A stretch of 64,000 nt of DNA, taken from a virus. Every line of letters begins with the position of its first letter. Positions within the stretch are counted from its first letter, which is position 1. This document shows, one piece after another, positions 22,955-58,269 of the stretch. Under the pieces are notes generated by a model. It was given only the letters and a program-made list of their open reading frames with translations. It searched no databases and was not told where the DNA came from. The DNA lies in IMG/VR virus record IMGVR_UViG_3300007735_000795, positions 34,767 to 98,766 of that record; one strand, written 5' to 3'. The position numbers and the translations under genes are program-made.

Positions 22955-22960
22955 ATTGTT

Positions 22961-28233: not shown

Positions 28234-28259
28234 TATATTAAATTATTAAACTTAAATGT

Positions 28260-28883: not shown

Positions 28884-28902
28884 ATAACTGTAATATAATA
28901 AA

Positions 28903-29361: not shown

Positions 29362-29367
29362 AATCTT

Positions 29368-31213: not shown

Positions 31214-31214
31214 T

Positions 31215-41115: not shown

Positions 41116-41842
41116 TTATATAACCGTGTTTTTCTGCTATTTCTGTTGTTTTAAATAATGGTTGTAGATTTGTATAGTGAAAGCATTGTTTTTGTTCTTC
41201 TAGTTTAGTTAAGTCAAAGTTTGAACAAGCTTTAATATGATCTATTTCCCATACTGTTCCATGGTTTTCCCAAGTCATTTCAGGTTTAAATTGTTGTTCT
41301 AAATATAATTTAAGTTCTTCAATAGAACAATTTATTAATTCAAGTACAGATTTTATTTTATATCCTCTAATTACAGCACTATAAAATCTATTTCTTAAAG
41401 TAACTTCAATTTTGTATTGAATATTGTTATTATATCTATCATTCTGGTATGGTCTATCTCTTTCAGCTATGTAGCCATATTTTGAATTATATTCTTTTGT
41501 ACATTCTTTGCACTTGTTTTGTAAACCATGAGGTGCTTTTTTATCAGGATAAAATTCTGTTTTGTTTTTTATATTAAAACATGTGTTGCATTTTTTTATA
41601 TTTTTGTATTTTTCCTCTAAAAGTAACCATTTATATTTGTATTGTTGGAATGTTTCTTTTAATGTTTTACCTTTACGTTTTTCTCTAAACCATAATGCCC
41701 AACATCCATTACAGTAACCGCTTGATTGTAGTTGTTCAAATTCTTCTACACAACCAGTACATCTTTTTCTTAAACCATCTTCAGAATATTTTATTAAATC
41801 TATGTTATGTTTATATTGTTTTCTATTTTTTGTTTTACTCAT
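41075..41842 (-). CDS. HNH homing-type endonuclease
   Basis: CxxC pairs, MTWENHG.VWEIDHI...FHYTNLQPL. Confidence 0.88.
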   Translation of the reverse strand: MSKTKNRKQYKHNIDLIKYSEDGLRKRCTGCVEEFEQLQSSGYCNGCWALWFREKRKGKTLKETFQQYKYKWLLLEEKYKNIKKCNTCFNIKNKTEFYPDKKAPHGLQNKCKECTKEYNSKYGYIAERDRPYQNDRYNNNIQYKIEVTLRNRFYSAVIRGYKIKSVLELINCSIEELKLYLEQQFKPEMTWENHGTVWEIDHIKACSNFDLTKLEEQKQCFHYTNLQPLFKTTEIAEKHGYINEIGNRNKGNKSY

Positions 41843-41883
41843 AATGTATTATTTTATTATAAATATACATAGAGTCTGTCTTC

Positions 41884-41919
41884 TCAATATAAAAAAGAAA
41901 GCTTAGTTTCCCAAGCTTT
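41884..41919 (-). terminator. intrinsic terminator overlapping class-1 promoter, between the polymerase halves
   Basis: AAAGCTTGG-GAAA-CTAAGCTTT-CTTTTTT; CTTGG..TATATTGA at the standard spacing. Confidence 0.8.
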
Positions 41920-41949
41920 ACTTTAAATAGTTTGTTTTAATTAGTTTAA

Positions 41950-42237
41950 CTATGAATTTCCACCTTGGTATTCACCATCCAAGAACCAAAGCACTTCTCC
42001 TTCCTCCATACCATTAACAGCTATATCTAAAGAACCCTTATTAGGATTTAACGTATCTTCTTGATTTTCAATACTGTAAGAAGTATTTGTTTTTTCTAAA
42101 AACTTAATGAATTTAGAAGCTTGTAGTTTCCTTGCTGCGTCTACTATTTCGCTATGAGTTAGTGCCTCATTTAATACTTTAGAATTAGTAGTCATTTTGT
42201 TTTCTACTAAATATTTTTTTAAATCAAAATTATCCAT
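41950..42237 (-). CDS. hypothetical protein with MDNFDLKKYLVE leader (putative packaged protein)
   Basis: Own class-2 motif (42254-42262) and terminator. Confidence 0.75.
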   Translation of the reverse strand: MDNFDLKKYLVENKMTTNSKVLNEALTHSEIVDAARKLQASKFIKFLEKTNTSYSIENQEDTLNPNKGSLDIAVNGMEEGEVLWFLDGEYQGGNS

Positions 42238-42271
42238 GTTATTATAGTTTTATTATAAATATATGTTTTTT

Positions 42272-44064: not shown

Positions 44065-46014
44065 TTAAACTGCTCCAAAAGAAGCAGTATACCATCCTCC
44101 ATCCCAAATATATAATTTATTAGTACTTGTATTAAAATACATTGAACCTGTTTTTGGGTTGGATGGGTTGACTGTATTTGTAGGTATCATGATTGAACCC
44201 CTACTACTACCATCTACATCAACAGTAAATCCATCTTTTTCGGTACCTAATGCTCCTCCTATTCCTACTACAAACAATGAAGTATCATTACCGTGTTCAT
44301 TAAATTTACCAACTACAGTTTGATACGAACCCGAAGCTATAGCATATCCTCCTAAAGCAGTTGAATAAGCGCCTTCTGTTTCTGAATATGTTCCTCCTGC
44401 AAATGAATAAATACCTTTAGCAACTGTATTTGCTCCTTGAGTATGTGAACCATTACCATATGCTAATGTGTTCTCCCCCTCAGCATGAGAATATGAGCCT
44501 GAAGCAATTGAATTATATCCTTCAGCGTGGGAAAAATCACCTCGAGCATCTGTGTCATTACCTTCAGCATGAGAACCGGTACCTCTAGTATATGTTCCCA
44601 AACCTTCAGCATGAGAAAAAGGACCTTCTGTTAGAGAACCTGAACCTTCAGCATGAGAATGTTGTCCTGAAGTCTGTGTGTCTTTACCTTCAGCATGTGA
44701 ATATCCACCTAAAGCCCATGTGTTATAACCTTCAGCATGAACATAAAAACCTGAAGCGGTTGTTTGAGAACCTTCAGCGTGTGAATATTGTCCTGAAGCA
44801 GTTGTTTGATAACCTTCAGCATGTGAGTATTGACCTAAAGCAATTGTTTGATAACCTTCAGCATGTGAATAAGAACCTGAAGCAACTGTTTGAGAACCTT
44901 CAGCATGTGAATATAAACCTAAGGATAAAGTTTGTTGTCCTTCTGCATGTGAATAAGAACCTGAAGCAACTGTTTGAGAACCTTCAGCGTGTGAATATTG
45001 ACCTGAAGACGTTGTTAAATAACCTTCTGCGTGAGACCATGAACCTGATGCTAATGTTTGATATCCTTCAGCATGTGAATAATCACCTAAGGATAAAGTT
45101 TGCCATCCTTCAGAATGAGAGCCTTGTCCTACAGCATCTGTTTGATAACCTTCAGCATGAGAAGAATTACCAGAGGATGTTGTTTGATAACCTTCAGTGT
45201 GTGAATAACCACCTAAAGCAAGTGTAGCTTGACCTTCAGTATGGGAATAATTACCTTGAGCTAATGTTTGATAACCTTCAGCATGAGCTGCTAAACCTAA
45301 AGCAGTTGTTTGCAATCCTTCGGCATGTGAAGAAATACCTGATGCTAATGATGATGAACCTTCTGCGTGTGAAGTAATACCAATTGAGTCGGTTGATCTG
45401 CCTTCAGCATGTGAATAAAGACCTGAAGCTGTTGTTTGAAAACCTTCAGCGTGAGAAGTAGAACCTGATGCTAATGTTTGGTATCCTTCTGCATGTGAAT
45501 AAGAACCTGAAGCAAATGAACCTGAACCTTCAGCATGGGATGCAAAACCATAAGCAGTAGTTTGAGAACCTTCAGCATGTGAATATGAACCGGATGCTAA
45601 TGCTTGATAACCTTCAGCATGAGAAGCAGATCCAATAGCGTCTGTTTCTCGTCCTTCTGAATGGGCATATAAACCTGAAGCTGTTGTTTGATAACCTTCA
45701 GCATGAGTAGAAGTAGTTTTAGCCCATGTTTGCCATCCTTCGGCGTGTGCTGTATAACCAGTTGCTTGTGAATCTCTACCTTGTGCGTGTGAATAATTAC
45801 CTGATGCTGTTACGTTGTCTCCTTGAGCAAATGTATATTCATTGAAAGCAGTAGCATTTACTCCAATCATTATAGAGCCACTAAATTTATTGCTACCTGA
45901 TAGGAAAGCATATGATTTAGAGACATGAAAAAAATTATTGTCTAATTGTTCATAACTAAGAGCAGAACCAGTAACTGTTCTAAATGTAAACGATCCTGAA
46001 TTTAAAAGAGGCAT
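44065..46014 (-). CDS. fibre/adhesin-like protein with YadA-head (Hep_Hag)-type beta-roll repeats
   Basis: About 35 x 14-aa repeats xxTxAxGxxSHAEG; class-2 motif at 46031-46039. Confidence 0.8.
   Translation of the reverse strand: MPLLNSGSFTFRTVTGSALSYEQLDNNFFHVSKSYAFLSGSNKFSGSIMIGVNATAFNEYTFAQGDNVTASGNYSHAQGRDSQATGYTAHAEGWQTWAKTTSTHAEGYQTTASGLYAHSEGRETDAIGSASHAEGYQALASGSYSHAEGSQTTAYGFASHAEGSGSFASGSYSHAEGYQTLASGSTSHAEGFQTTASGLYSHAEGRSTDSIGITSHAEGSSSLASGISSHAEGLQTTALGLAAHAEGYQTLAQGNYSHTEGQATLALGGYSHTEGYQTTSSGNSSHAEGYQTDAVGQGSHSEGWQTLSLGDYSHAEGYQTLASGSWSHAEGYLTTSSGQYSHAEGSQTVASGSYSHAEGQQTLSLGLYSHAEGSQTVASGSYSHAEGYQTIALGQYSHAEGYQTTASGQYSHAEGSQTTASGFYVHAEGYNTWALGGYSHAEGKDTQTSGQHSHAEGSGSLTEGPFSHAEGLGTYTRGTGSHAEGNDTDARGDFSHAEGYNSIASGSYSHAEGENTLAYGNGSHTQGANTVAKGIYSFAGGTYSETEGAYSTALGGYAIASGSYQTVVGKFNEHGNDTSLFVVGIGGALGTEKDGFTVDVDGSSRGSIMIPTNTVNPSNPKTGSMYFNTSTNKLYIWDGGWYTASFGAV
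44350..45840 (-). repeat. coding tandem repeat, 42-bp period
   Basis: Recurrent ccttc(a/t)gc(a/g)tg on + strand every 42 nt. Confidence 0.9.
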
Positions 46015-46424: not shown

Positions 46425-46946
46425 TTATTCGAAAAACTGCTCTAAGTTTGGTTTAAAATAATTAACTGATTTCATTACTTTACGATCATGAGTACGATAC
46501 ACTACCCAATAATCACCTTGTTTTTCATAATGACAAGCAGTACCTTGTTCTTGTTCTCTAATACGAACAGTTAAATTAGCTTCTTCTTCGGTTTTACAAA
46601 CCTTACTCATATTTGATGCTTGTACTTCAGCATATGCATCTTGAATTTGGCCTTTTAAACCATGAAGCATAGTTCCATTTCCTAATGAAACATATGTTAT
46701 GTCACACAATGCGTCTAATACCCCTACAATATCTCCTTTTTGACATGCTTCTTTATATTCCTCTAGTTCCTCTAGAATAAAATTATAAACAAACATCCAT
46801 TCTTTTTCATCTGGAATGACTGGGGAATAATTGTTTGGTTTACCCATTGTTTTGTTAAATGTTTCTACTTCATCAACAAATGGAACAGATTGCATTGCTT
46901 TTCTAATTGTTTCGTAGTTTACTGTTTTAGATTGAGACATGACCAT
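46425..46946 (-). CDS. MazG-like nucleoside triphosphate pyrophosphohydrolase
   Basis: EELEE...DALCD..YV...EVQASNMSK...KVMKS..Y..P. Confidence 0.85.
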   Translation of the reverse strand: MVMSQSKTVNYETIRKAMQSVPFVDEVETFNKTMGKPNNYSPVIPDEKEWMFVYNFILEELEEYKEACQKGDIVGVLDALCDITYVSLGNGTMLHGLKGQIQDAYAEVQASNMSKVCKTEEEANLTVRIREQEQGTACHYEKQGDYWVVYRTHDRKVMKSVNYFKPNLEQFFE

Positions 46947-47622
46947 TATTTATTTTAAGTGAATCAAAAAATTCTTTACGTGCTTGATTATTATTATCCA
47001 TAAACACACCTGATGCTTTGGTAGTAACCATTGCAGCACCTTGGTGTTTTACTCCTCTACATGAAACACATGAGTGTGATGCTACAACAGATACAATAAC
47101 ACCCAAATTACCTTCACAAACTTTATTTACTGCTTGATGAATAGCGGCTGTTAATTGTTCTTGAATAGCACCTCTACGACCAAAGTGTTCTACAATGCGG
47201 TTTAGTTTTGACAAACCAATTACTCTACCCTCAGCACCTGAAACATATCCTATGTGTACTACACCTCTAATTGTTTGGTGGTGATGTGAACACATTGAAG
47301 TTAATTCAATGTTACGTTCAATAATTACACCATCATATCCGTCTGATGGGAATGAAGTAATGTCTGTAAAACCATTATAACGACCTGCCCACAAATCATT
47401 TACATATGCTTTTGCTACACGACGAGGTGTGTCAGCAGAATTAGGATCATTTTGCCAGTCACATTTTAATGCTGTTAGAAAGTTACCAAAATGCTCAGCA
47501 GCTTCTTCAATCATTTTTAATTTTTCTCGTTCTGTAAATGGTGCTCCAGGAGCAGAACCATTAGCAAAACCTGTAGGGACACATTCAATGTCGTTGTGAA
47601 ATTTTCTTCTATTGTTTTCCAT
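46927..47622 (-). CDS. folE: GTP cyclohydrolase I
   Basis: TPRRVAK, SMCSHH, GLSKL.R, IQE.LT, HSCVSCRG. Confidence 0.96.
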   Translation of the reverse strand: MENNRRKFHNDIECVPTGFANGSAPGAPFTEREKLKMIEEAAEHFGNFLTALKCDWQNDPNSADTPRRVAKAYVNDLWAGRYNGFTDITSFPSDGYDGVIIERNIELTSMCSHHHQTIRGVVHIGYVSGAEGRVIGLSKLNRIVEHFGRRGAIQEQLTAAIHQAVNKVCEGNLGVIVSVVASHSCVSCRGVKHQGAAMVTTKASGVFMDNNNQARKEFFDSLKINNGHVSI

Positions 47623-47646
47623 ATAACCTTAATATAATAAATTTTA

Positions 47647-48159
47647 TTAAACTGCCAAGATGTAAGGTAAACTTCTTTTTTTACCATTATCATCATCCAT
47701 ACCATAGCCTACAACCCATTCTGATTTGATTTCAAATCCATAAATTGATCCTATAGGTATGTTTATTTCGTTAATTTCTCTTTTTATTAAAGTAACAATG
47801 TTTACTCCAAAAGCACCTTTTTCTGTAAATTGATTTTTTAAAATATTCATTGTTACACCTGTATCATAAATGTCGTCTATAATGTAAACAAATTTACCTT
47901 TTACATCTAAAGAAGCAGGAATAATCATTTCAGGTGTTTCATGTTCTCTACCCTTATAAGACTTTACTTTAATAAATTCACATTCAGGGTCTAAATGTGA
48001 TAATTGATCCATTAGTTTAGAATAAAACATAAAACCACCACTTAAAACACATACCATAACAATTGGTACTTCTTTTTCTGATTTGTGGCGGTTGTGAATT
48101 TGGGTAGAGATTTCTTTAATTCTCTTTTCAATTGTTTCTTTTTCAAATAATACTTTCAT
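47647..48159 (-). CDS. hpt: purine phosphoribosyltransferase (HPRT-like)
   Basis: VLSGGFMF, VKSY, IIDDIYDTGVT PRPP loop, VVGYGMD. Confidence 0.9.
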   Translation of the reverse strand: MKVLFEKETIEKRIKEISTQIHNRHKSEKEVPIVMVCVLSGGFMFYSKLMDQLSHLDPECEFIKVKSYKGREHETPEMIIPASLDVKGKFVYIIDDIYDTGVTMNILKNQFTEKGAFGVNIVTLIKREINEINIPIGSIYGFEIKSEWVVGYGMDDDNGKKRSLPYILAV

Positions 48160-48418
48160 ATAGAGATTTTATTTCGTTTCCGCCTGGGTAATGTTTTGTT
48201 TTGCCTTTGCTTGCTAGTATTAGGTGAGGGTAATAGTCTACACCATATTCTTGTTCTAATTCTTCGTTTTCTTCAATTTTAATGAATTTGAATCTTAATC
48301 GTTCAACTATTTTTTGAACATATGGGTTAGCTGCTTTACAAGCACCACACCAGTCAGCACTAAACAAAATGATAACATTTTCGTTATTAATTGTTTCTTT
48401 TAATAGTTGTTTATTCAT
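48143..48418 (-). CDS. thioredoxin
   Basis: FSADWCGAC; likely start MNKQLL. Confidence 0.88.
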   Translation of the reverse strand: MNKQLLKETINNENVIILFSADWCGACKAANPYVQKIVERLRFKFIKIEENEELEQEYGVDYYPHLILASKGKTKHYPGGNEIKSLYESII

Positions 48419-48419
48419 A

Positions 48420-49202
48420 TTAAACTTCTCTTTTAGTATCAAAGGCTATAATGTGTTCTCTACCTGTAAAATTATAACCATTGTCTCTACAAAAATCCAT
48501 TACCATAGGATAAACTCGAATTAATTCTTCTCTAGTATCACCTGGAGGCATAAGCCAAGTTTTGCTTTTAGGGATATTTAAATCACACATAAATTGTTTT
48601 ATTTCTTCCCACACTTCAGGCATTTCAATAGGATTACATACTGGTTTAAAGTGAAAATCATTATGATATTCAATCATTTGTTTAATATTTTCTTTATGAA
48701 GGCGGAACTTATTGTGTTGGTCCACCATTTTTTGGTCCACTTCTTTCCCCTGCGGTGTATTAATTCCAATCCTAGGTACACTATTACTGAACTTAGGAGA
48801 CAATGATACCAAGCCAATTGGATAATCTGTTTCAATAAAATGTGAACCTTCAGTTTCTATTGTTATAAATATACCTCGTTGGTAAGCAAAATGAGTAAGT
48901 TCATTTACCAAATCAGGATGCATTGTTGGTGATCCTCCTGTTAACATCATTTCTGTAATAAATGGATTTTGATTATAGATTTCAATGATGTCATTAAATG
49001 TATATTTACCTTTTTCAGGGTGAATACTTGTATACCATGAATCACACCAACCACCTTCTCCAAACCAGCAACGATGAGTACAACCTGTGGTTCTTATTGC
49101 TACTGTAGGTCTTCCTGCTCTACTACCTTCACTTTGTACACATGTATAAAGTTCAACTATAGGTAGAGTTTTAGTATAATCAGTTATTCTTCCTGGTTTC
49201 AT
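48420..49202 (-). CDS. queE: 7-carboxy-7-deazaguanine synthase (radical SAM)
   Basis: QSEG..G.P, CTHRC..CD, TGG.P, IETEG, SPK. Confidence 0.93.
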   Translation of the reverse strand: MKPGRITDYTKTLPIVELYTCVQSEGSRAGRPTVAIRTTGCTHRCWFGEGGWCDSWYTSIHPEKGKYTFNDIIEIYNQNPFITEMMLTGGSPTMHPDLVNELTHFAYQRGIFITIETEGSHFIETDYPIGLVSLSPKFSNSVPRIGINTPQGKEVDQKMVDQHNKFRLHKENIKQMIEYHNDFHFKPVCNPIEMPEVWEEIKQFMCDLNIPKSKTWLMPPGDTREELIRVYPMVMDFCRDNGYNFTGREHIIAFDTKREV

Positions 49203-49252
49203 TGTAAATGTAAATATAATTTATGTTGTATGTTGGAGTTGATGTCCAGTAG

Positions 49253-49717
49253 TTATTCTCCGTAACTAGCACTGTTTCTTTCGTTTTCATATACTTCTAC
49301 TTTTGCTACTTGTACTCGACCATTAGTTTCTTCTACTAAAAATGTATTTAGTTTTAAATATAAATACTTTGCAAACTGTTCTGCTCCAGTAGCAGGTATA
49401 ATTCGTAGTTGAATAAGACCATTACTATGCATTTCTTTAAATTGTTCCAAATATGGATCGTCTTCTGCTATAATTGTAGTATGATCAAACATATGATCCA
49501 TCCATGCTTTAGGATTCATACCACCAATGGTTCCTTTAGCACGTTTCATGCCTCCAAAGTCCCATACCCAATTACGTTCGTCCAATTCACCTTTGAACCA
49601 TACTCTAAATGATACAGCATATCCATGTAAAAATTTACAATGAGTATCTTCTGCTCTCCATTGACGAAAACATGTACTGAATCCGTCAAATAATTTTGTT
49701 GATTTAAATGTTTCCAT
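49253..49717 (-). CDS. queD: 6-carboxy-5,6,7,8-tetrahydropterin synthase
   Basis: C..LHGY, DFG, FDH, G.E, VYEN. Confidence 0.92.
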   Translation of the reverse strand: METFKSTKLFDGFSTCFRQWRAEDTHCKFLHGYAVSFRVWFKGELDERNWVWDFGGMKRAKGTIGGMNPKAWMDHMFDHTTIIAEDDPYLEQFKEMHSNGLIQLRIIPATGAEQFAKYLYLKLNTFLVEETNGRVQVAKVEVYENERNSASYGE

Positions 49718-49721
49718 GTTG

Positions 49722-49982
49722 TTAGTTTATCACTTCACTAAATGTTTTCCAATTTACTTCATCAACATGCATTCCATTTTCATCTACTTCAGATTTACCT
49801 GTAGGTATACCTAACACAATGTCTCCGTTTCCATCTTTAGCTATGGCAATAAAACCAAAACCTTCACAAATGTACGAAGAATAATGATTAGGTTCAAGAG
49901 TATCTGCAATTTCTAAAATGTCAAAATCCCAGGGCATTTCGGGATCATTTTTTTCAGCCCATTGTTTACTAAATTCAGCCAT
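49722..49982 (-). CDS. hypothetical protein
   Basis: 86 aa, MAEFSKQ..ICEG.G. Confidence 0.7.
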   Translation of the reverse strand: MAEFSKQWAEKNDPEMPWDFDILEIADTLEPNHYSSYICEGFGFIAIAKDGNGDIVLGIPTGKSEVDENGMHVDEVNWKTFSEVIN

Positions 49983-50229
49983 AATTCAACCAGTCTATAA
50001 TTTGATTAAAAGTTTTTATTCCTGTAAATCTACGAACTTCCTTTTCATTCTCCACGAGAACTACAGTAGGAATGTTTCTTACTTGTGCTTCTGTAAGCAC
50101 AGCTGGGTCAGCATAATCAATGTTAATTTTACGAACAGGAATTTGTTTATTAACTTGATCCATGATTGGTCCTAGTGTTTCACAAGGGTTACACCATGGT
50201 GCTGAATAGTAATATAACTGTTTGCTCAT
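49975..50229 (-). CDS. thioredoxin
   Basis: SAPWCNPC, VRNIPT. Confidence 0.9.
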   Translation of the reverse strand: MSKQLYYYSAPWCNPCETLGPIMDQVNKQIPVRKINIDYADPAVLTEAQVRNIPTVVLVENEKEVRRFTGIKTFNQIIDWLNYG

Positions 50230-50381
50230 ACTAATTCCTCCACTATACCTAAAATTTCACTTGCTACTAAAAGTATAACTCCAATTACTGGGTCTGGTAG
50301 TAAGGCTATGTATCCTACAATTCGTAGTGAAGATTTAGCTAGACTAATTTTCTGATGTTTCTTCGGATCCGGGTGTTGCAT
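50226..50381 (-). CDS. 51 aa small membrane protein
   Basis: MQHPDPKKHQKISLAKSSLRIVG...SEILGIVEELV*; ATGA-coupled to thioredoxin. Confidence 0.65.
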   Translation of the reverse strand: MQHPDPKKHQKISLAKSSLRIVGYIALLPDPVIGVILLVASEILGIVEELV

Positions 50382-50532
50382 TTTCTTCTAAATTTAAGTT
50401 TTCTAATTGTTTTTTCATTACTTCAGTAAATACTTTTTCATACGCACGTTCCATGTTTTTGAAATTAATATTACGTTTTTTAATTCGTTTGTTGTGGGCT
50501 TTTTTACCACCTCGTTTTCTAGATGTTGGCAT
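50344..50532 (-). CDS. small basic protein
   Basis: MPTSRKRGGKKAHNKRIKKRN. Confidence 0.6.
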   Translation of the reverse strand: MPTSRKRGGKKAHNKRIKKRNINFKNMERAYEKVFTEVMKKQLENLNLEENATPGSEETSEN

Positions 50533-51412
50533 GGTTTTTTAATATTTGTTGTACATGATTTGTTACTACTCTCCAAGTTGTAGGACCTTCTTCATTAGCA
50601 TATTCTACTGGATCTGGTTTTCCTAGTTTCATAAATGCTTCAATACGTTCTACAGATGATGCTGATTTGTAATCTGAATACCATTTACTTCTAAATTCAC
50701 CATTTATATCTTGCCAAGTCCAATGGATTGGTTTATATGATGTATTAGTACGGTAATATACTTCATTAAAGTCTAAGCCAAGTTTACCTAAACATTTATC
50801 ACCATCTTTTAGAATACCAAACTTATCAGTATCAAGATAAGGCGTATAATGATATACTTTTTCAGCTCCCCAATTTCCCATTTTGAATGCTTCAAAATCA
50901 GCATCTCTAAATTCTTGACGACAATCAGGGTAAATAGCATGATCACCAGCATGAATACCCATTGCAATAGCACATTCAGTATTATTTTGTTCAGCAATTG
51001 ATAATGCTACTGCTTGAATAATAGAACTAAAGATTTTATTACGATTAGGAACTACTGTTGCTTTCATATTCTCTTCAGCGTAGTGTCCTTCAGGTACATC
51101 TTCACCTCCAGTTACTAAAGCTGAATTGAGTAGTTCAGATAATCCATCAAGTTTAATTACTTGGTGTTTTACTAGTGGATAAATTTCTTCAAATCCATTA
51201 GGTGCATGATCATGATGGAATAGACGAGTTGGGTTATTATTAATGTACTTAACTAAATCCTTAGCACGTTCTAATTCAACATTGTGTTTTTGACCATAGT
51301 CAAAACTTAAACATGTAACCTCATAGTTGTTAGCTAACAGGTGTAGTAGTAGTGTACTTGAATCTAATCCCCCAGATAGGCTAAGTACTGCTTGTTTTTT
51401 GTTTATATTCAT
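50519..51412 (-). CDS. queC: 7-cyano-7-deazaguanine synthase
   Basis: LSGGLDS, FDYGQKH, TVVPNRN, YPDCR. Confidence 0.95.
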   Translation of the reverse strand: MNINKKQAVLSLSGGLDSSTLLLHLLANNYEVTCLSFDYGQKHNVELERAKDLVKYINNNPTRLFHHDHAPNGFEEIYPLVKHQVIKLDGLSELLNSALVTGGEDVPEGHYAEENMKATVVPNRNKIFSSIIQAVALSIAEQNNTECAIAMGIHAGDHAIYPDCRQEFRDADFEAFKMGNWGAEKVYHYTPYLDTDKFGILKDGDKCLGKLGLDFNEVYYRTNTSYKPIHWTWQDINGEFRSKWYSDYKSASSVERIEAFMKLGKPDPVEYANEEGPTTWRVVTNHVQQILKNHANI

Positions 51413-51435
51413 AACTTTAATATATAAAATTTTTT

Positions 51436-52095
51436 TTAATTTTCAAATTTATTTCCTTTTTTTAAATTATCTTCCCACCATAGTGGCTGGAGATTTGTGT
51501 AATGGCATGCTTTTTTTACTTCATCCTCTATAGTTAGATCAAATGAAGATAATGGAAGAATATGATCTATATGCCATCCTTTTAAACCATAATTTTCCCA
51601 TGTCATCCCATCAGTAAATTGTTTTTCAATATGAGACATGAAAGTTTCTCGATCACATCCTATAAGTTCAAGGGTAGTAGCACCTAAATTTCTTTTATTA
51701 ATTAAATCAGATAACCTTCCAGACATGTTTCCTTTTATTTTAAAGAACATATCTTCTTTTCTACGATTGTGTCTATATTCTCTTTCATACTTTCTCCACC
51801 AATTTAGATTTTCAGCTACATATTTTTTTCTATATTGTTTAGCCTTATCTGTTTTATCTCTTTCAGCCCTAGTATTAGTTTTAGTTTGGAAATGTTTATC
51901 ATATACTAAATCACATGATTTACATTGAGATTTTAATCCCATAAATCCTTCTTTTTGAGGAGTAAAAAAATTAAAATCTTTTATTTCTAAACATTTAGTA
52001 CAACGCTTTTTACTTTCTTTAGCTAAATCTTCTTTTTCTTTAAGTTTAGGATTATTTTTTCTCCTATATTCTTTCATGTATTCTTTACTAGGCAT
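51436..52095 (-). CDS. HNH homing-type endonuclease
   Basis: CTKC..CKSC, MTWENYG..WHIDHI.P...HYTNLQPLW..DN..K; same family as 41075..41842. Confidence 0.9.
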   Translation of the reverse strand: MPSKEYMKEYRRKNNPKLKEKEDLAKESKKRCTKCLEIKDFNFFTPQKEGFMGLKSQCKSCDLVYDKHFQTKTNTRAERDKTDKAKQYRKKYVAENLNWWRKYEREYRHNRRKEDMFFKIKGNMSGRLSDLINKRNLGATTLELIGCDRETFMSHIEKQFTDGMTWENYGLKGWHIDHILPLSSFDLTIEDEVKKACHYTNLQPLWWEDNLKKGNKFEN

Positions 52096-52105
52096 ATTTA
52101 TATAA

Positions 52106-52142
52106 TTTTATGGCGGTTATAAATATTATAACCACCATAAAA
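52106..52142 (-). promoter_or_regulatory. 17-bp RNA hairpin enclosing class-2 promoter upstream of HNH gene
   Basis: TTTTATGGTGGTTATAA-TAT-TTATAACCGCCATAAAA (one G:U pair in - strand RNA). Confidence 0.8.
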
Positions 52143-52153
52143 AAACATAAAAA

Positions 52154-52471
52154 TTAGAAAGATACTGTATGAATTGTTTTAATAGAAAGATCAGACATTT
52201 CATATTTAGCTAAATCTTTATCTCTAGCTACTTGAAAATCTACTGATTGTCCGTTTTTTGTTTCTACCCAAAGTTCTTTAATAAACTCGGTTTTGATGAT
52301 TTTTTCATCTTCGTCTCTTGTAATTTTAAAAACTGCTACTTTGTTTTGCATAACTTGTTGGTTATTTAAATTGTTATAAGTTAATGTTGTTCCAGTACTA
52401 TATGAAGTACCGATGCCTGTGGGTGATGTTGATAAAACACAACCGTTGATGTTATTTATTAATGTTGACAT
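52154..52471 (-). CDS. hypothetical protein
   Basis: 105 aa ORF. Confidence 0.65.
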   Translation of the reverse strand: MSTLINNINGCVLSTSPTGIGTSYSTGTTLTYNNLNNQQVMQNKVAVFKITRDEDEKIIKTEFIKELWVETKNGQSVDFQVARDKDLAKYEMSDLSIKTIHTVSF

Positions 52472-52476
52472 AATTA

Positions 52477-52746
52477 TTAATTGTATTTTTTATATAAGGT
52501 TTCTAATACTTGAGTATCTTCATTACTCATTTGGTAAAAATTTTTAGACAAAGCATCACACATGTTAATATGTTCTTGTTCTAACAATGATACTTGAGAT
52601 GCTCTGTGTTTGAAAACTTGAGTCTGTTTTAAATGACCATCTTTAATAAGAGCATCAACAAGAGTTTTAATGTCTCTTTCCTGACATTCAGATAGGAATT
52701 CGTTTACTGAAATTTCTAATTCGGCGTCTGTACAAAAATAGGGCAT
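52477..52746 (-). CDS. hypothetical protein
   Basis: 89 aa ORF. Confidence 0.7.
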   Translation of the reverse strand: MPYFCTDAELEISVNEFLSECQERDIKTLVDALIKDGHLKQTQVFKHRASQVSLLEQEHINMCDALSKNFYQMSNEDTQVLETLYKKYN

Positions 52747-52757
52747 AACTTTTATTT

Positions 52758-52943
52758 TTATTTGTTAAAGTAATTAGCAAGCCAATCTGAAGGATACAAC
52801 ATTACTACTCCATCATATTTTGGGTTAGACACTTGGCGAGTTTGAATTTTTACTCTATCTCGCATTGCAGCCTCGGCTACTTGTTTTCCTAGTTGACTAC
52901 CTGCGGCCTTGCCTAAGTAGTCATAAAGTGATTTATATTCCAT
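52758..52943 (-). CDS. hypothetical protein
   Basis: SLYDYLG.AAG..LG..V motif. Confidence 0.7.
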   Translation of the reverse strand: MEYKSLYDYLGKAAGSQLGKQVAEAAMRDRVKIQTRQVSNPKYDGVVMLYPSDWLANYFNK

Positions 52944-53718
52944 TTATTATTTTGAATTGTTTAGTATTAAAAAGAATTTTTGTTAATTGTGGTTTTTCTA
53001 AATCTGCTTCTATTACATCATCAATTTTAGTAGTTGGTTTTTTGTCTAAACCCCACTCATTGTATCTTGTATTTTCAATAGCAGCCATAATAGGATTTGA
53101 TGTGTCAATTGTAGTAACAAAAGGCATATTTTTATAATATACAAACTCTTGTGGTATAGCACACCCTAATAAATGAATATTATCAATTTCTTTAATTATA
53201 CCTTGATGATACAATTTACTTACAACATGTACTCGTCCCATTGCTGTAGCAACGTCTGGAGTTGAATGAGGGAATTCATGTTTATAATAAGCAGCACCAT
53301 ATGAAAATGCTATTTTTCGGTATCCTAATGCTTTATATTTTTGGTAGCATTCTGCTGCTTCATAAAAACTTTTAGCTTGTACTACTGCTACTTTTATAGT
53401 ATGTGCAGGTAATTCTATTTTAGCCCATTCAGCAGCGTTTTTAAGTGATGCTTCCATGTCTTCCCACACATCAGGAACAATAAATTCATTAGGTTGTAAT
53501 TCATTTATCCAATGCATCAAACGATCAGTATCGTATGCTTGTCCTAATTCATGTAATGAATTGTCCATTATTACATATCGATTATTTTCTTTAGCCCATC
53601 TAAAATACTTCTCGTATCGATCGTATTTGTCTAATAGGTGGGGCAGACAATAGTCATAGTCGTTAAAACTTTTTGACCATTCTAAAACACATAAGGGAAC
53701 TTCGTGAGATATTTTCAT
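52933..53718 (-). CDS. TGT/DpdA-like guanine transglycosylase
   Basis: IMDNS, VPD, AVVQ, IHLLG, IDTS TGT-barrel pattern; upstream of queC/D/E/folE. Confidence 0.7.
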   Translation of the reverse strand: MKISHEVPLCVLEWSKSFNDYDYCLPHLLDKYDRYEKYFRWAKENNRYVIMDNSLHELGQAYDTDRLMHWINELQPNEFIVPDVWEDMEASLKNAAEWAKIELPAHTIKVAVVQAKSFYEAAECYQKYKALGYRKIAFSYGAAYYKHEFPHSTPDVATAMGRVHVVSKLYHQGIIKEIDNIHLLGCAIPQEFVYYKNMPFVTTIDTSNPIMAAIENTRYNEWGLDKKPTTKIDDVIEADLEKPQLTKILFNTKQFKIINGI

Positions 53719-53763: not shown

Positions 53764-54282
53764 TTAAAAAGGAGAATTATCTTCTGTTAATTTGGCTCGT
53801 ATAGCCCTGTAACTTCGAATTACTTCATCAGTGGTACCACAAGCAAAATTGTCTATAAAATCATTAACTTCCTCTATTGTACCACCAAACGATGAACGAA
53901 GACTATTTTTAAGATTTTTTATACGTTCAAATTCGTCTCGTTCAAAGTCTTGTCTAAGGTTTTTGATGCGTTTATTGTAATTTGATCTTATGTCTCGTTC
54001 TTTTTCTTCTTTCACATCATCATTGCTATTACTGTTGCGAATATTAGCAATTTCTTCAGCCATCCACCAATACTCATAATTAATGTACTTGGCATAAGGT
54101 GAATATTCAAAATCACCATTTTTGCATTTATCCCATATACTCGAATTGCTTGGTAAAAATTTATGAGTAGGATAACGTCTATGGTAATAGAATATATTAA
54201 ATTTAAGTGGTTTGGGTTTTGGTGGTGCTTTGATACCAAAAACCGGATTCACTTCTTTCAAAACTTCTTCAACTGTAACCAT
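53764..54282 (-). CDS. hypothetical protein
   Basis: 172 aa, NGDFEYSPY. Confidence 0.75.
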   Translation of the reverse strand: MVTVEEVLKEVNPVFGIKAPPKPKPLKFNIFYYHRRYPTHKFLPSNSSIWDKCKNGDFEYSPYAKYINYEYWWMAEEIANIRNSNSNDDVKEEKERDIRSNYNKRIKNLRQDFERDEFERIKNLKNSLRSSFGGTIEEVNDFIDNFACGTTDEVIRSYRAIRAKLTEDNSPF

Positions 54283-55584: not shown

Positions 55585-57309
55585 TTATCCTTCACATGAA
55601 ACGCAATCTGATAAGCGTTGTAAATTGTCTCCTCTTAGAACACTTTCAGTGCGTAAGTAATACAATGTTTTAATACCTTGTTTCCAAGCCTCTTTATGTA
55701 CTTGACTAATCCATTTAGGTGTGTCATTTGGATCAAAGGTCAAGTTTAATGAAATTGCTTGATCAACATATTTTTGTCTAATACCATTTTGACGAACAAT
55801 TTCTAACTGATTAATTTCTTTAAATGTTAAGAATACTTCTTTTTCTTCATCAGTTAAAATATAATCAGGAACATTTACTACTGAACCTTGATCTTTTAAA
55901 ATTTGATCCCAAACACTGTCAATGTTGTATCCTTTTTTAGTAAGCAATTCTTCTAAAATTTTATTTCGCTTAATAAATACACCTTTAGCTGTTTTTAAGT
56001 TATAAACATTAGCAGGAATAGGTTCAATTGAAGGTGATACACCTCCTGAAATGTGAGCGTTTGATACAGTTGGTGCAGGTGCTAAATGATGGGTATGTCT
56101 TAAACCTGTACCTTTACACCATTCTGGTTCACCATATAATACTGCTTGGTCACGAGATGCTTTTAATACTTCTTGTTCAATAAAATCAAACATCATTCTA
56201 GTGTAAGAATTTGCTTGAATACCTACAAACGGCAATCCTTTTTGTTGTAGGAAAGTATGCCAACCTAAAACACCAACTCCAATTGCTCTACCTTTAGTAG
56301 CTGAGCGAACTGTGTTTTCCATGAATTTAATGTTTTTAGCTCTATCAATAAATTCTTGAAGTACACCTTCTAAAAACCAACAAGATAATTCAGGTAATGT
56401 CATTCCATTTTCAAACTTAAAATCTTTCCATTCATCCCATCTTGCTAAGTTTAAAGATGATAAACAACAAATAAATGAATGTAATTCATCAGTATAAAGA
56501 GCAATCTCAGTACAAATGTTAGTCATTGATACTTTTAAGTTGTTCTTTTTATATGCTTCAGGATTAGCATTATTAATATTATCCTCAAACATAATATAAG
56601 GTTCACCTGTTTCAAGACGTGTCTTAAGAATTTCACCCCAAATCTTTAATGATTTAGGATCTTTATTCTCAAGTTTATCCATAAATTCATCATCAATAAC
56701 AACACACTGATGAAGATTTAAACACTGTCTGTTAACATCACCTTTTGGTCTACGAATTTGTAAAAATTCTTCAATGTCTGGGTGGTTAATGTTTAAGTTA
56801 ACAGATGCTGCTCCTCTACGAACACTACCTTGATTAGTAGCTAAGATTGTAGAGTCATAAATTTTACACCATGGAACTACACCTTCTGATACTCCATTGT
56901 CTTTAATGGCTTTACCTCGTCCTCTAATACGAGATACACCAATACCAACACCTCCACCTTGAGATGATAATCTCATTAGTTCTGAGTTAGCATCAGCAAT
57001 ACCTTCAATACTATCACCTACATCAATACCAAAGCATGAAATAGGCATTCCACGTTCAGTACCCATGTTTGATAATACAGGTGATGCTAAGCATAACCAA
57101 TTTTTAACCATTGCTTCATAAAACAATGGTTGTAAGTCTTTACGTCTTAGACGGCGAGCAGCAGCTTTACTTACTCTTTTATATGCGTCAAATACATCTT
57201 CATCAGGTAATAAATAACCTTTTGAAATCATACTAACAGCAATTTCATCCATCCATTCTGGGTAGTGTTTACCCTTAATCCAATTTGTTGTATCTATTTG
57301 TGAACTCAT
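55585..57309 (-). CDS. nrdA: ribonucleotide reductase class Ia alpha subunit (no ATP cone)
   Basis: PISCF, GGGVG, RRGA, TNICTEI, APT.S, DQAISLNL, KTLYY.R, C-terminal CVSCEG. Confidence 0.96.
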   Translation of the reverse strand: MSSQIDTTNWIKGKHYPEWMDEIAVSMISKGYLLPDEDVFDAYKRVSKAAARRLRRKDLQPLFYEAMVKNWLCLASPVLSNMGTERGMPISCFGIDVGDSIEGIADANSELMRLSSQGGGVGIGVSRIRGRGKAIKDNGVSEGVVPWCKIYDSTILATNQGSVRRGAASVNLNINHPDIEEFLQIRRPKGDVNRQCLNLHQCVVIDDEFMDKLENKDPKSLKIWGEILKTRLETGEPYIMFEDNINNANPEAYKKNNLKVSMTNICTEIALYTDELHSFICCLSSLNLARWDEWKDFKFENGMTLPELSCWFLEGVLQEFIDRAKNIKFMENTVRSATKGRAIGVGVLGWHTFLQQKGLPFVGIQANSYTRMMFDFIEQEVLKASRDQAVLYGEPEWCKGTGLRHTHHLAPAPTVSNAHISGGVSPSIEPIPANVYNLKTAKGVFIKRNKILEELLTKKGYNIDSVWDQILKDQGSVVNVPDYILTDEEKEVFLTFKEINQLEIVRQNGIRQKYVDQAISLNLTFDPNDTPKWISQVHKEAWKQGIKTLYYLRTESVLRGDNLQRLSDCVSCEG

Positions 57310-57318
57310 AATCTTGTT

Positions 57319-58269
57319 TTATAAATCATCCCAATCTGCTGTAGACTTAGCATATGCTGTTACTCTACCTGCAAAGAAATCTTGATGTGTTTTACCTGAT
57401 GTTAAATGTCCAAACCATTCAATTTGTTTTAAAAGATTAGGATCAATATCATTATAAATTGCTTTATAACCTAATTCAATCATTTTTTCATTAGCACGGG
57501 CTTTAATAAAGTTTTTTAATTGTTCTTTATTTAAACCTTCAACACTACCCATCTCAAACGCTTTATCAATAAAGTCAAATTCAAGCTGTACTGATAAATG
57601 ACATGCTTCAATTATTTTTTCTCTTAACTCGTCAGTGTTTAATTCTGGTTGTTCCTCTAATAGTGTTCTAAATAACCAGCAACCTGCTTTGGAGTGTAGT
57701 GATTCATCTCTAACACTCCATTCTACAATTTGGCCTGTACCTTTCATTAAGTTTCTTAATTGGAAACTCATCAACACAGCAAATGAAGAAAACAAATTTA
57801 CACCTTCAGTGAATGCTGAAAATATAGCTAATGAAATTGCTCTGTCTTCTATTGTTTCACCTGGTGTTTCAATCAAACGTTCGATTTTAGCTTTAGATAC
57901 TTCGTCTTCTAAAAATGCTTTAAAGTCATCTAAACCTAATTCTTCATTTAACCTAGCATATGCTTCAGCATGGATGCTTTCAAAATCAGCAAATACACGA
58001 GCCATAGCTTGGATTTCGGGTTTCGGAAACCAAACTGATACTTTTGTGGACCAATAATCGTTAACATGTACTTCTGTTTGAGCAAATGATTTTAATATGT
58101 TTCCAATTAAATTCTTTTCAGGTTCTGTTAATTTTAATTTCCAATCGTTCAAATCTGATGCGAGTGGAACTTCATCTGCTAACCAATGTGCTCTATGTTG
58201 ATCTTTATAGAAATCAAATGCTGTTTGGTACTCAAATGGTTTATAAAAATTTCTTGCGTCGGTAATCAT
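57319..58269 (-). CDS. nrdB: ribonucleotide reductase class Ia beta subunit
   Basis: W...EV, ESIH.EAY, EGV.LFSSF, RDESLH, DFFA. Confidence 0.96.
   Translation of the reverse strand: MITDARNFYKPFEYQTAFDFYKDQHRAHWLADEVPLASDLNDWKLKLTEPEKNLIGNILKSFAQTEVHVNDYWSTKVSVWFPKPEIQAMARVFADFESIHAEAYARLNEELGLDDFKAFLEDEVSKAKIERLIETPGETIEDRAISLAIFSAFTEGVNLFSSFAVLMSFQLRNLMKGTGQIVEWSVRDESLHSKAGCWLFRTLLEEQPELNTDELREKIIEACHLSVQLEFDFIDKAFEMGSVEGLNKEQLKNFIKARANEKMIELGYKAIYNDIDPNLLKQIEWFGHLTSGKTHQDFFAGRVTAYAKSTADWDDL

What the first reader, a model, noticed from the sequence alone, without database searches (positions are those of the whole stretch)
46425..53718. 7-deazaguanine cluster with phosphoribosyltransferase, MazG-like enzyme and compact TGT: possible nucleotide-level guanine replacement
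Seen: folE, queD, queE, queC and a 261-aa TGT/DpdA-like gene, with an HPRT-like gene and a MazG-like gene flanking folE. No queF, arcS or gat-queC lies in the window. Known: FolE-QueD-QueE-QueC make preQ0 (or ADG), and DpdA exchanges such bases into DNA as anti-restriction. Inference, model (a): the PRTase activates preQ0/ADG with PRPP, the nearby NrdAB reduces it, MazG removes dGTP and the phage polymerase incorporates the analogue before replication ends. Model (b): the PRTase recycles guanine released by the transglycosylase back to GTP for FolE.
Basis: partly seen in the sequence, partly recalled or inferred. Interest (0 to 1): 0.8.

Follow-up and report, generated by a model that had tools for sequence, protein, structure and literature searches.

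The report
Phage guanine-replacement cluster with guanine-salvage enzyme
This uncultured T4-like phage carries a known kind of gene set for swapping the guanine in its DNA for a 7-deazaguanine base, and next to the pathway's first enzyme sits a guanine-salvage enzyme that most likely recycles the ejected guanine, a helper step that the papers I could read do not mention.

Summary
On the minus strand of window 46425-53718 lie a MazG-like gene, FolE, an Hpt-type phosphoribosyltransferase (PRTase), thioredoxin, QueE, QueD, thioredoxin, QueC and a 261-aa gene. That last gene is a DpdA3-family transglycosylase: the model has pLDDT 97.9, Z is 17.7 to ArcTGT and 17.6 to DpdA, and identity to CP220 gp056 is 37%. 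NrdAB and PolB flank the cluster. A complete 163-kb relative has no QueF, formyltransferase or ArcS, so the predicted base is dPreQ0 or dADG.

The PRTase is a fixed part of the module. All 39 DpdA3-anchored viral loci that include FolE carry a purine PRTase, 32 of the Hpt type and 7 of the Gpt type, and never both. In 36 of 39 it lies within 150 bp of FolE. The Gpt type also sits beside FolE in phage immuto, whose guanine is fully replaced, and is fused to FolE in DpdA1 phages such as VpKK5 and Baskent_P4_1.

Model (a), PRTase activation of preQ0, is disfavoured. CP220 reaches 100% replacement with no detectable PRTase.

The MazG-like enzyme is closest in fold to the dUTPase DR2231, and its substrate is unresolved. 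The scan has noted Gpt-type PRTases in such clusters on other DNA. The Hpt-type variant and the in-situ displacement are new here.

The parts
46425..46946 (-). MazG-like all-alpha NTP pyrophosphohydrolase (173 aa). Its start overlaps the end of FolE by 20 nt.
   Evidence: PF01503 2.8e-9 and phrog_671 1e-28. The metal-binding residues E59, E60, E63, D78 and D82 are invariant in 21 homologues. The AF2 model has pLDDT 91.5, and its nearest PDB fold is DR2231, a MazG-like dUTPase. It is 73% identical to immuto gp208.
46927..47622 (-). GTP cyclohydrolase I (FolE), the first enzyme of the pathway
   Evidence: PF01227 6.7e-42. It is 62% identical to immuto FolE.
47647..48159 (-). Hpt-type 6-oxopurine phosphoribosyltransferase (170 aa), 24 nt upstream of FolE
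   Evidence: PF00156 1.2e-17 and TIGR01203 3e-36. The best PDB sequence matches are HGXPRT/HPRT enzymes, e.g. 1hgx at 2e-20. D95, D96, D99, G101, T103, S67, Y68, D155 and R162 are invariant, and W148 nearly so, in 18 viral homologues that diverge to 34% identity. The gene is syntenic with FolE in 69 of 75 HPRT-anchored loci.
48143..48442 (-). Thioredoxin-like protein 1, overlapping both HPRT and QueE
   Evidence: PF00085 3e-16. It is conserved in the cluster in 41 and 49 loci of the two locus sets.
48420..49202 (-). QueE, the radical-SAM 7-carboxy-7-deazaguanine synthase
   Evidence: PF04055 and TIGR03365. It is 68% identical to immuto QueE.
49253..49717 (-). QueD, 6-carboxytetrahydropterin synthase
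   Evidence: PF01242 5e-17. It is 68% identical to immuto QueD.
49975..50229 (-). Thioredoxin-like protein 2
   Evidence: PF00085 2e-12. It is conserved in 55 and 56 loci of the two locus sets.
50519..51412 (-). QueC variant (297 aa) with a long C-terminal part and no Gat domain
   Evidence: PF06508 1e-36, matching model positions 1-184 of 210 only. It is 61% identical to immuto QueC, which must supply preQ0 to QueF.
51436..52095 (-). HNH/EndoVII-like homing-endonuclease-type gene, a mobile insertion that is not part of the pathway
   Evidence: phrog_1035 5.6e-23. It is present in only 2 of 87 related loci.
52758..52943 (-). Small conserved protein (61 aa) overlapping the end of DpdA3, function unknown
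   Evidence: It is conserved next to DpdA3 in relatives and is 55% identical to an immuto ORF.
52933..53718 (-). DpdA3-family guanine transglycosylase (261 aa), a minimal TGT TIM barrel
   Evidence: phrog_19058 3e-50, with weak DpdA and DUF6610 hits. It is 37-39% identical to CP220-group gp056 and 35% to the immuto 'DNA guanine transglycosylase'. The model has pLDDT 97.9, with Z 17.7 to 1iq8 and 17.6 to 7ui4. D52, D83 and D205 are invariant in 70 family representatives.
53764..54282 (-). Conserved 172-aa protein next to DpdA3, function unknown
   Evidence: It has no family match. It is syntenic with DpdA3 in 43 loci.
55585..58269 (-). Class I ribonucleotide reductase: NrdA (55585-57309) and NrdB (57319-58269)
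   Evidence: PF02867 1.6e-95 and PF00268 2.5e-64.

Best explanation
This is a DpdA3-type 7-deazaguanine DNA-modification module, set inside the replication and nucleotide-metabolism region of an uncultured, AT-rich, T4-like phage.

Inferred from family assignments: FolE, QueD, QueE and QueC turn GTP into a free 7-deazaguanine base. This is most likely preQ0, and possibly ADG, because no QueF, formyltransferase or ArcS exists in a complete relative.

Inferred from homology to the only three tested DpdA3 phages, all of which are 100% replaced: DpdA3, a minimal TGT-fold transglycosylase, exchanges guanine for that base, probably in most or all G positions.

Inferred from comparative genomics: the Hpt-type PRTase beside FolE converts the released guanine to GMP with PRPP. 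This removes a competitor of the incoming base at the transglycosylase. After host kinases act, it also returns one GTP to FolE for every G excised, so the replacement costs no net guanine.

The MazG-like enzyme is an active all-alpha NTP pyrophosphohydrolase that travels with the module. Its substrate is unresolved and could be dUTP housekeeping, dGTP, or another guanine nucleotide. The two thioredoxins probably serve the RNR and/or the radical-SAM step.
For: DpdA3 phages CP220, phiST and immuto are completely modified (PMC10516641).

QueF, Formyl_trans_N and DUF5591 are absent from G000 and from the complete relative G001. QueC is 61% identical to immuto QueC, which works upstream of QueF.

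Linkage of the PRTase:
- All 39 DpdA3-anchored IMG/VR loci that include FolE carry a purine PRTase: 32 Hpt-type, 7 Gpt-type, never both. It lies within 150 bp of FolE in 36 of 39.
- Of 75 HPRT-anchored loci, 69 have FolE and QueE.
- At least 471 viral contigs encode this HPRT.
- HPRT homologues in isolated phages look like bacterial contamination only.

PRTase in other lineages:
- Immuto has a Gpt-like gene next to FolE.
- PhiST has a PRTase beside a dNMP-kinase-like gene and the RNR.
- Brevundimonas phage MaInes has FolE followed by XPRT.
- The PA5oct-like phage MIJ3 has gpt next to queE.
- A Gpt-like domain with intact PRPP motif is fused to FolE in Baskent_P4_1 and VpKK5, next to DpdA1.

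The catalytic residues of 6-oxopurine PRTases stay invariant in viral sequences that are only 34% identical. These include the Asp that acts on purine N7 in HGPRTs, here D99.
Against: No biochemistry exists for any of these phage PRTases, for DpdA3 or for the MazG-like enzyme.

TubE, a PF00156 purine-type PRTase, does use a 7-deazaguanine (CDG) with PRPP (PMC6112128). The fold and motifs therefore cannot exclude preQ0, ADG or CDG as the substrate. I could not obtain TubE or ToyH sequences to compare.

The loop needs GMP and NDP kinases and PRPP. The phage has no Gmk and no PRPP synthetase, so it would depend on the host.

The salvage model gives the MazG-like enzyme no obvious job, although it is the best-conserved protein of the module shared with immuto (73%).

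The many loci come from related phages and are not independent events. The independent support is about six lineages or contexts.

The extent of replacement in this phage is extrapolated from three other phages.
Confidence: 0.55

Rival explanations
1. Reader's model (a). The PRTase attaches PRPP to preQ0, ADG or CDG. Kinases and NrdAB convert the product to the dNTP. The MazG-like enzyme destroys dGTP, and the polymerase incorporates the analogue, so replacement happens before replication.
For: TubE shows that a purine-type PRTase can use CDG with PRPP. NrdAB and PolB flank the cluster. An active NTP pyrophosphohydrolase is part of the module. Post-replicative exchange would have to achieve 100% replacement, which is demanding. 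From my own knowledge, 7-deaza-dGTP is a good polymerase substrate.
Against: This route makes DpdA3 unnecessary, yet DpdA3 is present in all of these clusters.

Two different guanine-salvage families occupy the same slot. That would require two independent shifts to a deazapurine substrate.

The same Gpt-like domain is fused to FolE in DpdA1 phages. In that group, published modification is partial and motif-specific, which a nucleotide-pool route cannot produce (PMC10484667).

CP220 is 100% modified with no PRTase that I could detect.

The N7-directed Asp is invariant.

The MazG-like gene is absent from 6 of 34 loci that have room for it.

No GMP kinase or T4-type dNMP kinase was found in the complete relative.
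Confidence: 0.1
2. Hybrid model (c), a T4-style nucleotide-level pathway centred on DpdA3. The MazG-like enzyme (an HD enzyme in CP220) converts dGTP to dGMP. DpdA3 swaps the base on the mononucleotide. An AAA_28-type or dNMP kinase and host NDK rebuild the dNTP. The PRTase recycles the free guanine.
For: An NTP phosphohydrolase lies in or beside the DpdA3 cluster in four lineages and comes from different families: MazG-like here and in immuto, MazG/dUTPase-like in phiST, and an HD domain in CP220.

An AAA_28 P-loop kinase is directly adjacent to DpdA3 in CP220, in immuto and in locus L011, and is present in G001.

DpdA3 is a bare TIM barrel.

DpdA3 gave no result in an E. coli DNA-modification assay, and the ADG nucleoside was seen in the cytoplasm of CP220-infected cells (PMC10516641).
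Against: No TGT-family enzyme is known to act on mononucleotides. The authors of the DpdA3 paper read the family as post-replicative.

The MazG-like gene is not universal, and its nearest fold is a dUTPase.

The AAA_28 kinase also occurs in about 89 Streptomyces phage records, which I did not check for que genes.

Overall pI does not separate DpdA3 from the DNA-acting DpdA1.
Confidence: 0.17
3. The PRTase and the MazG-like gene are general auxiliary nucleotide-metabolism genes of the replication module (purine salvage, dUTPase), with no specific tie to the deazaguanine pathway.
For: They lie between NrdAB and PolB, among nucleotide and replication genes. The MazG-like family occurs in many phages not known to carry que genes. 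The complete relative has no trimeric dUTPase, so the MazG-like enzyme could fill that role.
Against: For the PRTase:
- Linkage to FolE is 39 of 39 loci, with displacement in place.
- Physical fusion to FolE occurs in other phages.
- Co-transfer happened between a PolB phage lineage and a PolA one.
- The Hpt type is absent from isolated phages outside such clusters.

For the MazG-like gene: it is the most conserved protein of the module shared with immuto.
Confidence: 0.08

Closest known systems
[quoted passage not shown]
   Same: FolE, QueD, QueE and QueC occur together with a compact DpdA3. DpdA3 is 35-39% identical. FolE, QueD, QueE, QueC and the MazG-like protein are 61-73% identical to immuto. 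Immuto also has a PRTase next to FolE and the same MazG-like gene.
   Different: Here the PRTase is a full-length Hpt-type enzyme, not the short Gpt-like one. There is no QueF, DpdN or DpdL, so a simpler base is predicted. The backbone is a T4-like PolB phage. The AAA_28 kinase is not adjacent to DpdA3 and was found only in the complete relative. The DNA of this phage has never been analysed.
Cellular hypoxanthine-guanine phosphoribosyltransferases (Hpt; TIGR01203; e.g. PDB 1hgx, 1g9s, 3o7m)
   Same: The PF00156 fold is shared, along with the PRPP motif, the loop-II Lys-Ser-Tyr, the GYG-x-D purine pocket and the C-terminal Arg.
   Different: The score is below the TIGR01203 cut-off (124.6 against 150 bits). 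The motif reads DDIYD(T/S)G where the solved bacterial HPRTs aligned read EDIIDxG. A nearly invariant Trp replaces the stacking Phe/Tyr. The PPi-loop Lys is Asn or Ser. The gene is phage-encoded and welded to FolE.
TubE/ToyH, the PRTases of tubercidin and toyocamycin biosynthesis (PMC6112128)
   Same: They are PF00156 purine-type PRTases encoded next to FolE/QueD/QueE homologues.
   Different: Those clusters have no TGT or DpdA. They carry GMP-reductase, PurA/PurB-like, Nudix/HAD and decarboxylase tailoring genes, and they make free nucleosides rather than DNA. I could not test sequence similarity to TubE or ToyH.
Phage systems that fully replace a base at the nucleotide level: T4 gp56 dCTPase, gp42 and gp1 for hmC, and MazZ, PurZ and DatZ for the Z-genome (from my own knowledge)
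   Same: An all-alpha NTP pyrophosphohydrolase is encoded with base-modifying enzymes beside the polymerase and RNR.
   Different: Nothing shows that the enzyme here acts on dGTP. The modifying enzyme belongs to a family known only as a transglycosylase of nucleic-acid polymers.
DR2231 of Deinococcus radiodurans, a MazG-like dUTPase (PDB 2yeu, 5hva)
   Same: It is the nearest solved fold to the MazG-like protein (Foldseek E 1e-4, TM 0.58/0.70), and it shares the acidic metal-binding motif.
   Different: Identity is only 16%. The phage protein has an extra conserved C-terminal beta-hairpin region, and its substrate is unknown.

Membership tests
DpdA3 subfamily of the TGT/DpdA superfamily | TGT-type TIM-barrel fold | tested here: met
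   The AF2 model has pLDDT 97.9. Every top Foldseek hit is a TGT, ArcTGT or DpdA at probability 1.0. VIA gives Z 17.7 (1iq8), 17.6 (7ui4) and 17.3 (Z. mobilis TGT), with rmsd about 3.1 A over about 230 residues.
DpdA3 subfamily of the TGT/DpdA superfamily | Sequence homology to the founding members (CP220 gp056, phiST CGPG_00065, immuto DpdA) | tested here: met
   tblastn over the full length gives 37-39% identity to CP220-group proteins (E 6e-48) and 35% to immuto (E 7e-45). PhiST itself was not hit at E 1e-5.
DpdA3 subfamily of the TGT/DpdA superfamily | Catalytic aspartates of TGT enzymes retained (general acid/base and nucleophile) | tested here: met
   D52 (motif DNS), D83 (PDV) and D205 (DTSNP) are invariant in 70 representatives. 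hhalign places D52 and D205 on the DSG and DSS motifs of VpKK5 DpdA1, though with low probability (33%). The mapping onto Z. mobilis D102, D156 and D280 is my inference.
DpdA3 subfamily of the TGT/DpdA superfamily | Encoded with FolE, QueD and QueE (with or without QueC) | tested here: met
DpdA3 subfamily of the TGT/DpdA superfamily | Complete replacement of dG in virion DNA | not testable with these tools
   This needs LC-MS of virion DNA, and no isolate of this clade is known to me.
Hypoxanthine-guanine PRTase (Hpt, TIGR01203) | Type I PRTase domain with a PRPP-binding acidic motif followed by (T/S)G-x-T | tested here: met
   PF00156 scores 64.1 bits against a 26.3-bit cut-off. The motif is VYIIDDIYDTGVT, with D95, D96, D99, G101 and T103 invariant.
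Hypoxanthine-guanine PRTase (Hpt, TIGR01203) | Score above the curated equivalog cut-off | tested here: not met
   TIGR01203 scores 124.6 bits against a cut-off of 150. It is a divergent member of the family, not an equivalog.
Hypoxanthine-guanine PRTase (Hpt, TIGR01203) | 6-oxopurine pocket: O6-binding Lys, stacking aromatic, GYG-x-D, and the flexible-loop Ser-Tyr | tested here: inconclusive
   S67, Y68, G151, G153 and D155 are invariant. The stacking residue is Trp148 rather than Phe or Tyr. The Lys aligns ambiguously with K128 or R129.
Hypoxanthine-guanine PRTase (Hpt, TIGR01203) | Guanine/hypoxanthine + PRPP -> GMP/IMP activity | not testable with these tools
   This requires an enzyme assay.
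TubE/ToyH-type 7-deazaguanine PRTases of nucleoside-antibiotic clusters | Cluster lacks any TGT or DpdA and carries GMP-reductase, PurA/PurB-like and phosphatase tailoring genes | tested here: not met
   DpdA3 is present. The Pfam scans of the ORFs between 40.2 and 63.8 kb showed no such tailoring genes. PF00478 was not searched genome-wide.
TubE/ToyH-type 7-deazaguanine PRTases of nucleoside-antibiotic clusters | Sequence relatedness to TubE or ToyH | not testable with these tools
All-alpha NTP pyrophosphohydrolases (MazG / HisE / dimeric dUTPase superfamily) | Helical fold with the E-x2-E-E-x2-E ... D-x2-D metal-binding motif | tested here: met
   PF01503 scores 37.7 bits against a 21.3-bit cut-off. 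E59, E60, E63, D78 and D82 are invariant. The fold is nearest DR2231.
QueC (7-cyano-7-deazaguanine synthase) | QueC domain, including the C-terminal four-Cys zinc site | tested here: inconclusive
   PF06508 scores 126.8 bits, but only model positions 1-184 of 210 are matched. Read by eye, the sequence has no Cys after about residue 210. The placement of the zinc site in the unmatched part is from my memory of B. subtilis QueC.

The most novel reading that the evidence does not exclude
DpdA3 does not work on finished DNA. It is the centre of a T4-style nucleotide-level pathway. The MazG-like enzyme (HD in CP220) turns dGTP into dGMP. DpdA3 exchanges the base on the mononucleotide. An AAA_28 or dNMP kinase re-phosphorylates the product. 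The polymerase builds fully substituted DNA, and the PRTase returns the freed guanine to FolE. This would explain how only DpdA3 phages reach 100% replacement.
Probability: 0.15. Interest if true: 0.9.

Novelty: new variant of a known kind. Interest (0 to 1): 0.55.

Why it matters
Complete replacement of guanine by a 7-deazaguanine protects phage DNA from restriction and other DNA-targeting defences. How DpdA3 phages reach 100% remains an open question.

A purine PRTase is a fixed component of these clusters. It is supplied by either of two salvage families, or it is fused to FolE. This points to a missing step, handling of guanine, that the pathway papers I could read do not mention. The step is directly testable with a handful of enzyme assays and with knock-outs in the cultured phages immuto and phiST.

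The work also delimits a large, abundant and uncultured group of T4-like phages that probably have fully modified DNA. This matters for sequencing bias, for host-defence studies and for enzymes useful in making modified DNA.

Tried and rejected
- **Nucleotide search.** Megablast of the cluster against isolated phages found nothing.
- **Hpt-type PRTase in isolated phages.** tblastn gave only records that look like bacterial fragments. It was therefore not useful for context.
- **MazG-like protein against PDB sequences.** phmmer and a profile search gave only spurious hits. Only the fold search was informative.
- **Overall pI of DpdA3 against DpdA1.** I tried this as a hint for a DNA or a nucleotide substrate. 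Both are acidic, so it tells nothing.
- **DpdA3 fusion partners.** They are homing endonucleases (probably read-through ORF calls) and a DpdN-like formyltransferase. Neither separates the models.
- **Nucleotide-metabolism genes.** G000 and the complete relative G001 have no Gmk, PRPP synthetase, T4 dNMP kinase or trimeric dUTPase.
- **PRTase in CP220.** tblastn with both PRTase types and a PF00156 search of the whole record found none. I could not confirm an earlier scan note that all three fully modified phages carry one.
- **Literature gaps.** The J Virol 2019 CP220 paper (PMC6854489) is not held. TubE and ToyH sequences could not be obtained for comparison.

Full report
**Source.** The window is bases 34767-98766 of a 98.8-kb IMG/VR viral contig that CheckV rates 61% complete. 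GC is about 30% and almost every gene lies on the minus strand. The finding sits in a replication and nucleotide-metabolism block with T4-like content. In transcription order this block holds gp32-like SSB, a 5'-3' exonuclease, a DnaB-like helicase, NrdB, NrdA, the cluster itself, and a family B polymerase split in two.

**Observation.**
- MazG/PRA-PH-like, 46425-46946
- FolE, 46927-47622
- an Hpt-like PRTase, 47647-48159
- QueE, 48420-49202
- QueD, 49253-49717
- QueC, 50519-51412
- a 261-aa gene, 52933-53718

The genes overlap or lie a few dozen bases apart, so the cluster reads as one operon.

**The 261-aa protein.**
- It gives only weak hits to DpdA and DUF6610, but it belongs to phrog_19058.
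- Over its full length it is 37-39% identical to CP220-group gp056 and 35% identical to the annotated DNA guanine transglycosylase of Flavobacterium phage immuto.
- These are members of the DpdA3 subfamily (PMC10516641).
- An AlphaFold model built on 70 diverse representatives has pLDDT 97.9.
- All top structural matches are TGT, ArcTGT or DpdA, with Z 17.3-17.7 over about 230 of 261 residues.
- D52, D83 and D205 are invariant in the family. They fall on the TGT-type DSG and DSS motifs of a DpdA1.
- The family is large: 1506 clusters at 50% identity have E below 1e-3.

**Predicted base.**
- QueF, formyltransferase (DpdN-type) and the ArcS domain are absent from the contig and from a 163,030-bp relative that CheckV rates complete.
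- QueC has no amidotransferase domain.
- QueC is 61% identical to immuto QueC, which must deliver preQ0 to that phage's QueF.
- I therefore predict dPreQ0, with dADG as the alternative.
- All three DpdA3 phages analysed so far replace 100% of G. High or complete replacement here is an extrapolation from that.

**The PRTase is a fixed part of the module.**
- The same gene order, PolB / MazG-like / FolE / HPRT / Trx / QueE / QueD / Trx / QueC / DpdA3 / ... / NrdA / NrdB, recurs in relatives.
- In 87 DpdA3-bearing loci from IMG/VR, 39 also include FolE. All 39 carry a purine PRTase: 32 of the Hpt type and 7 of a short Gpt-like type that is 47-55% identical to immuto gp211. No locus has both.
- The PRTase lies within 150 bp of FolE in 36 of the 39.
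- Starting instead from the PRTase, 69 of 75 HPRT-anchored loci carry FolE and QueE.
- The viral Hpt-type proteins diverge to 34% identity. They still keep the PRPP motif, the loop-II Ser-Tyr, the GYG-x-D pocket and the C-terminal Arg. A nearly invariant Trp stands where cellular enzymes have Phe or Tyr.

**Other lineages show the same association.**
- Immuto, which is 100% fdPreQ1, has QueD / QueE / ... / Gpt-like PRTase / FolE / ... / MazG-like / ... / DpdA3 / DpdN / AAA_28 kinase / QueF.
- PhiST has a PRTase beside a dNMP-kinase-like gene and the RNR.
- Brevundimonas phage MaInes has NrdBA / dNMP kinase / FolE / XPRT.
- PA5oct-like jumbo phages have gpt next to queE.
- In Pseudomonas phage Baskent_P4_1 and in Vibrio phage VpKK5 (Queuovirinae), and by the placement of the tblastn hit under the annotated GTP cyclohydrolase gene also in Stenotrophomonas and Sphingomonas phages, the Gpt-like domain is fused to the N-terminus of FolE, directly upstream of a DpdA1-type gene. 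In Baskent_P4_1, the one I read residue by residue, the domain keeps the PRGG, DDIIDSG and WVVFPWE motifs.
- CP220 has no PRTase that I could detect.
- Neither the two main phage papers, nor the iggy paper, nor a targeted full-text search mentions a PRTase.

**Which model?** Three points favour guanine as the PRTase substrate.
1. Two different 6-oxopurine salvage families fill the same slot. What they share is guanine phosphoribosylation, and a shift to a deazapurine would have had to happen twice.
2. The enzyme is fused to FolE, the consumer of GTP. This occurs in DpdA1 phages, a group in which published modification is partial and motif-specific, and so is made on DNA (PMC10484667).
3. CP220 replaces all G without a PRTase, so a PRTase-based nucleotide route is not what gives completeness.

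The logic of the loop is simple. Each exchange frees one guanine, and each new deazaguanine costs one GTP. Free guanine also competes for re-insertion at TGT-type enzymes (my own knowledge). A PRTase therefore both clears the competitor and balances the guanine budget.

**The MazG-like enzyme.**
- Its metal-binding residues are invariant.
- It is the best-conserved protein of the module shared with the unrelated, PolA-type phage immuto. Identity is 73%, against 61-68% for the Que enzymes and FolE and 35% for DpdA3.
- Its nearest solved fold is the dUTPase DR2231, and the complete relative has no trimeric dUTPase.
- The family is common in phages not known to carry que genes.
- It is missing from 6 of 34 cluster loci that have room for it.
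- Its substrate is therefore open. It may be a housekeeping dUTPase, or it may act on guanine nucleotides.

**The most novel reading not excluded.** DpdA3 clusters in four lineages carry an NTP phosphohydrolase, drawn from three different families (MazG-like, MazG/dUTPase-like, HD). In three lineages an AAA_28 kinase abuts DpdA3. DpdA3 is a bare barrel that gave no result in an E. coli assay. A T4-like route in which DpdA3 swaps the base on dGMP would fit these facts. There is no direct evidence for it, and I give it about 15%.

**Relation to earlier scan notes.** After I had formed this reading, a look-up showed that the scan has repeatedly noted Gpt-like PRTases in phage deazaguanine clusters on other DNA and reached the same recycling hypothesis. 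This window adds three things:
- the full-length Hpt-type variant;
- the mutually exclusive Hpt/Gpt displacement among related phages;
- the 39-of-39 count.

**Verdict.** This is a real and well-conserved module. It is a member of the known DpdA3 kind, with an accessory guanine-handling gene that the literature I could read has not described. Its model (b) is favoured, model (a) is disfavoured, and the role of the MazG-like enzyme is unresolved.

Noticed in passing
window 40207-44020: The family B DNA polymerase is split into 42272-44020 (exonuclease domain and N-terminal palm) and 40207-41115 (C-terminal part). A 255-aa ORF (41075-41842) and other sequence lie between them. In relatives L003, L004 and L007 the two polymerase parts abut. 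An earlier scan note (e1-6012335) describes the same split.
   Followed up: partly
window 44065-46014: A 649-aa gene with YadA-head repeats and raised GC (0.39 against about 0.31) sits between the MazG-like gene and PolB. It is absent from relatives L003, L004 and L007 and only 48% conserved in L005. It looks like an inserted adhesin or fibre-like gene.
   Followed up: partly
window 51436-52095: An HNH/EndoVII-like gene lies between QueC and DpdA3. It is present in only 2 of 87 related loci (L091 and L093, 82-84% identity) and is probably a homing endonuclease.
   Followed up: partly
window 50519-51412: QueC is 297 aa. The Pfam match stops at model position 184 of 210, and the C-terminal third contains no cysteines, so the usual zinc site seems to be missing. 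Immuto QueC is 61% identical and works upstream of QueF, so this variant is presumably functional.
   Followed up: partly
G001:C1:29191-29712 (L013:9191-9712); L001:12819-13361; L175:23570-24094; L011:9383-9904: An AAA_28 (NadR-like) P-loop kinase, annotated as 'thymidylate kinase', abuts DpdA3 in CP220, in immuto and in locus L011. It is present elsewhere in the complete relative G001. It also occurs in about 89 Streptomyces phage records.
   Followed up: partly
P0205, P0230 (representatives): These are natural fusions of DpdA3 with a Formyl_trans_N (DpdN-like) domain.
   Followed up: no
loci L004, L021, L023, L042, L049, L064, L069, L079, L092, L093 against L005, L007, L025: QueD homologues fall into two identity classes relative to the window (about 41-46% and about 60-79%) among otherwise similar clusters. 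This may be a QueD-paralogue swap of the DpdL kind.
   Followed up: no
window 52758-52943 and 52154-52471: Two small proteins of unknown function (61 and 105 aa) in the cluster also occur in immuto, at 55% and 34% identity. They appear to travel with the module.
   Followed up: no
window 37127-38743 and 18079-32651: The phage encodes a GroEL-type chaperonin (PF00118, 2e-67) and a run of glycosyltransferase genes. Earlier scan notes describe the sugar island.
   Followed up: no
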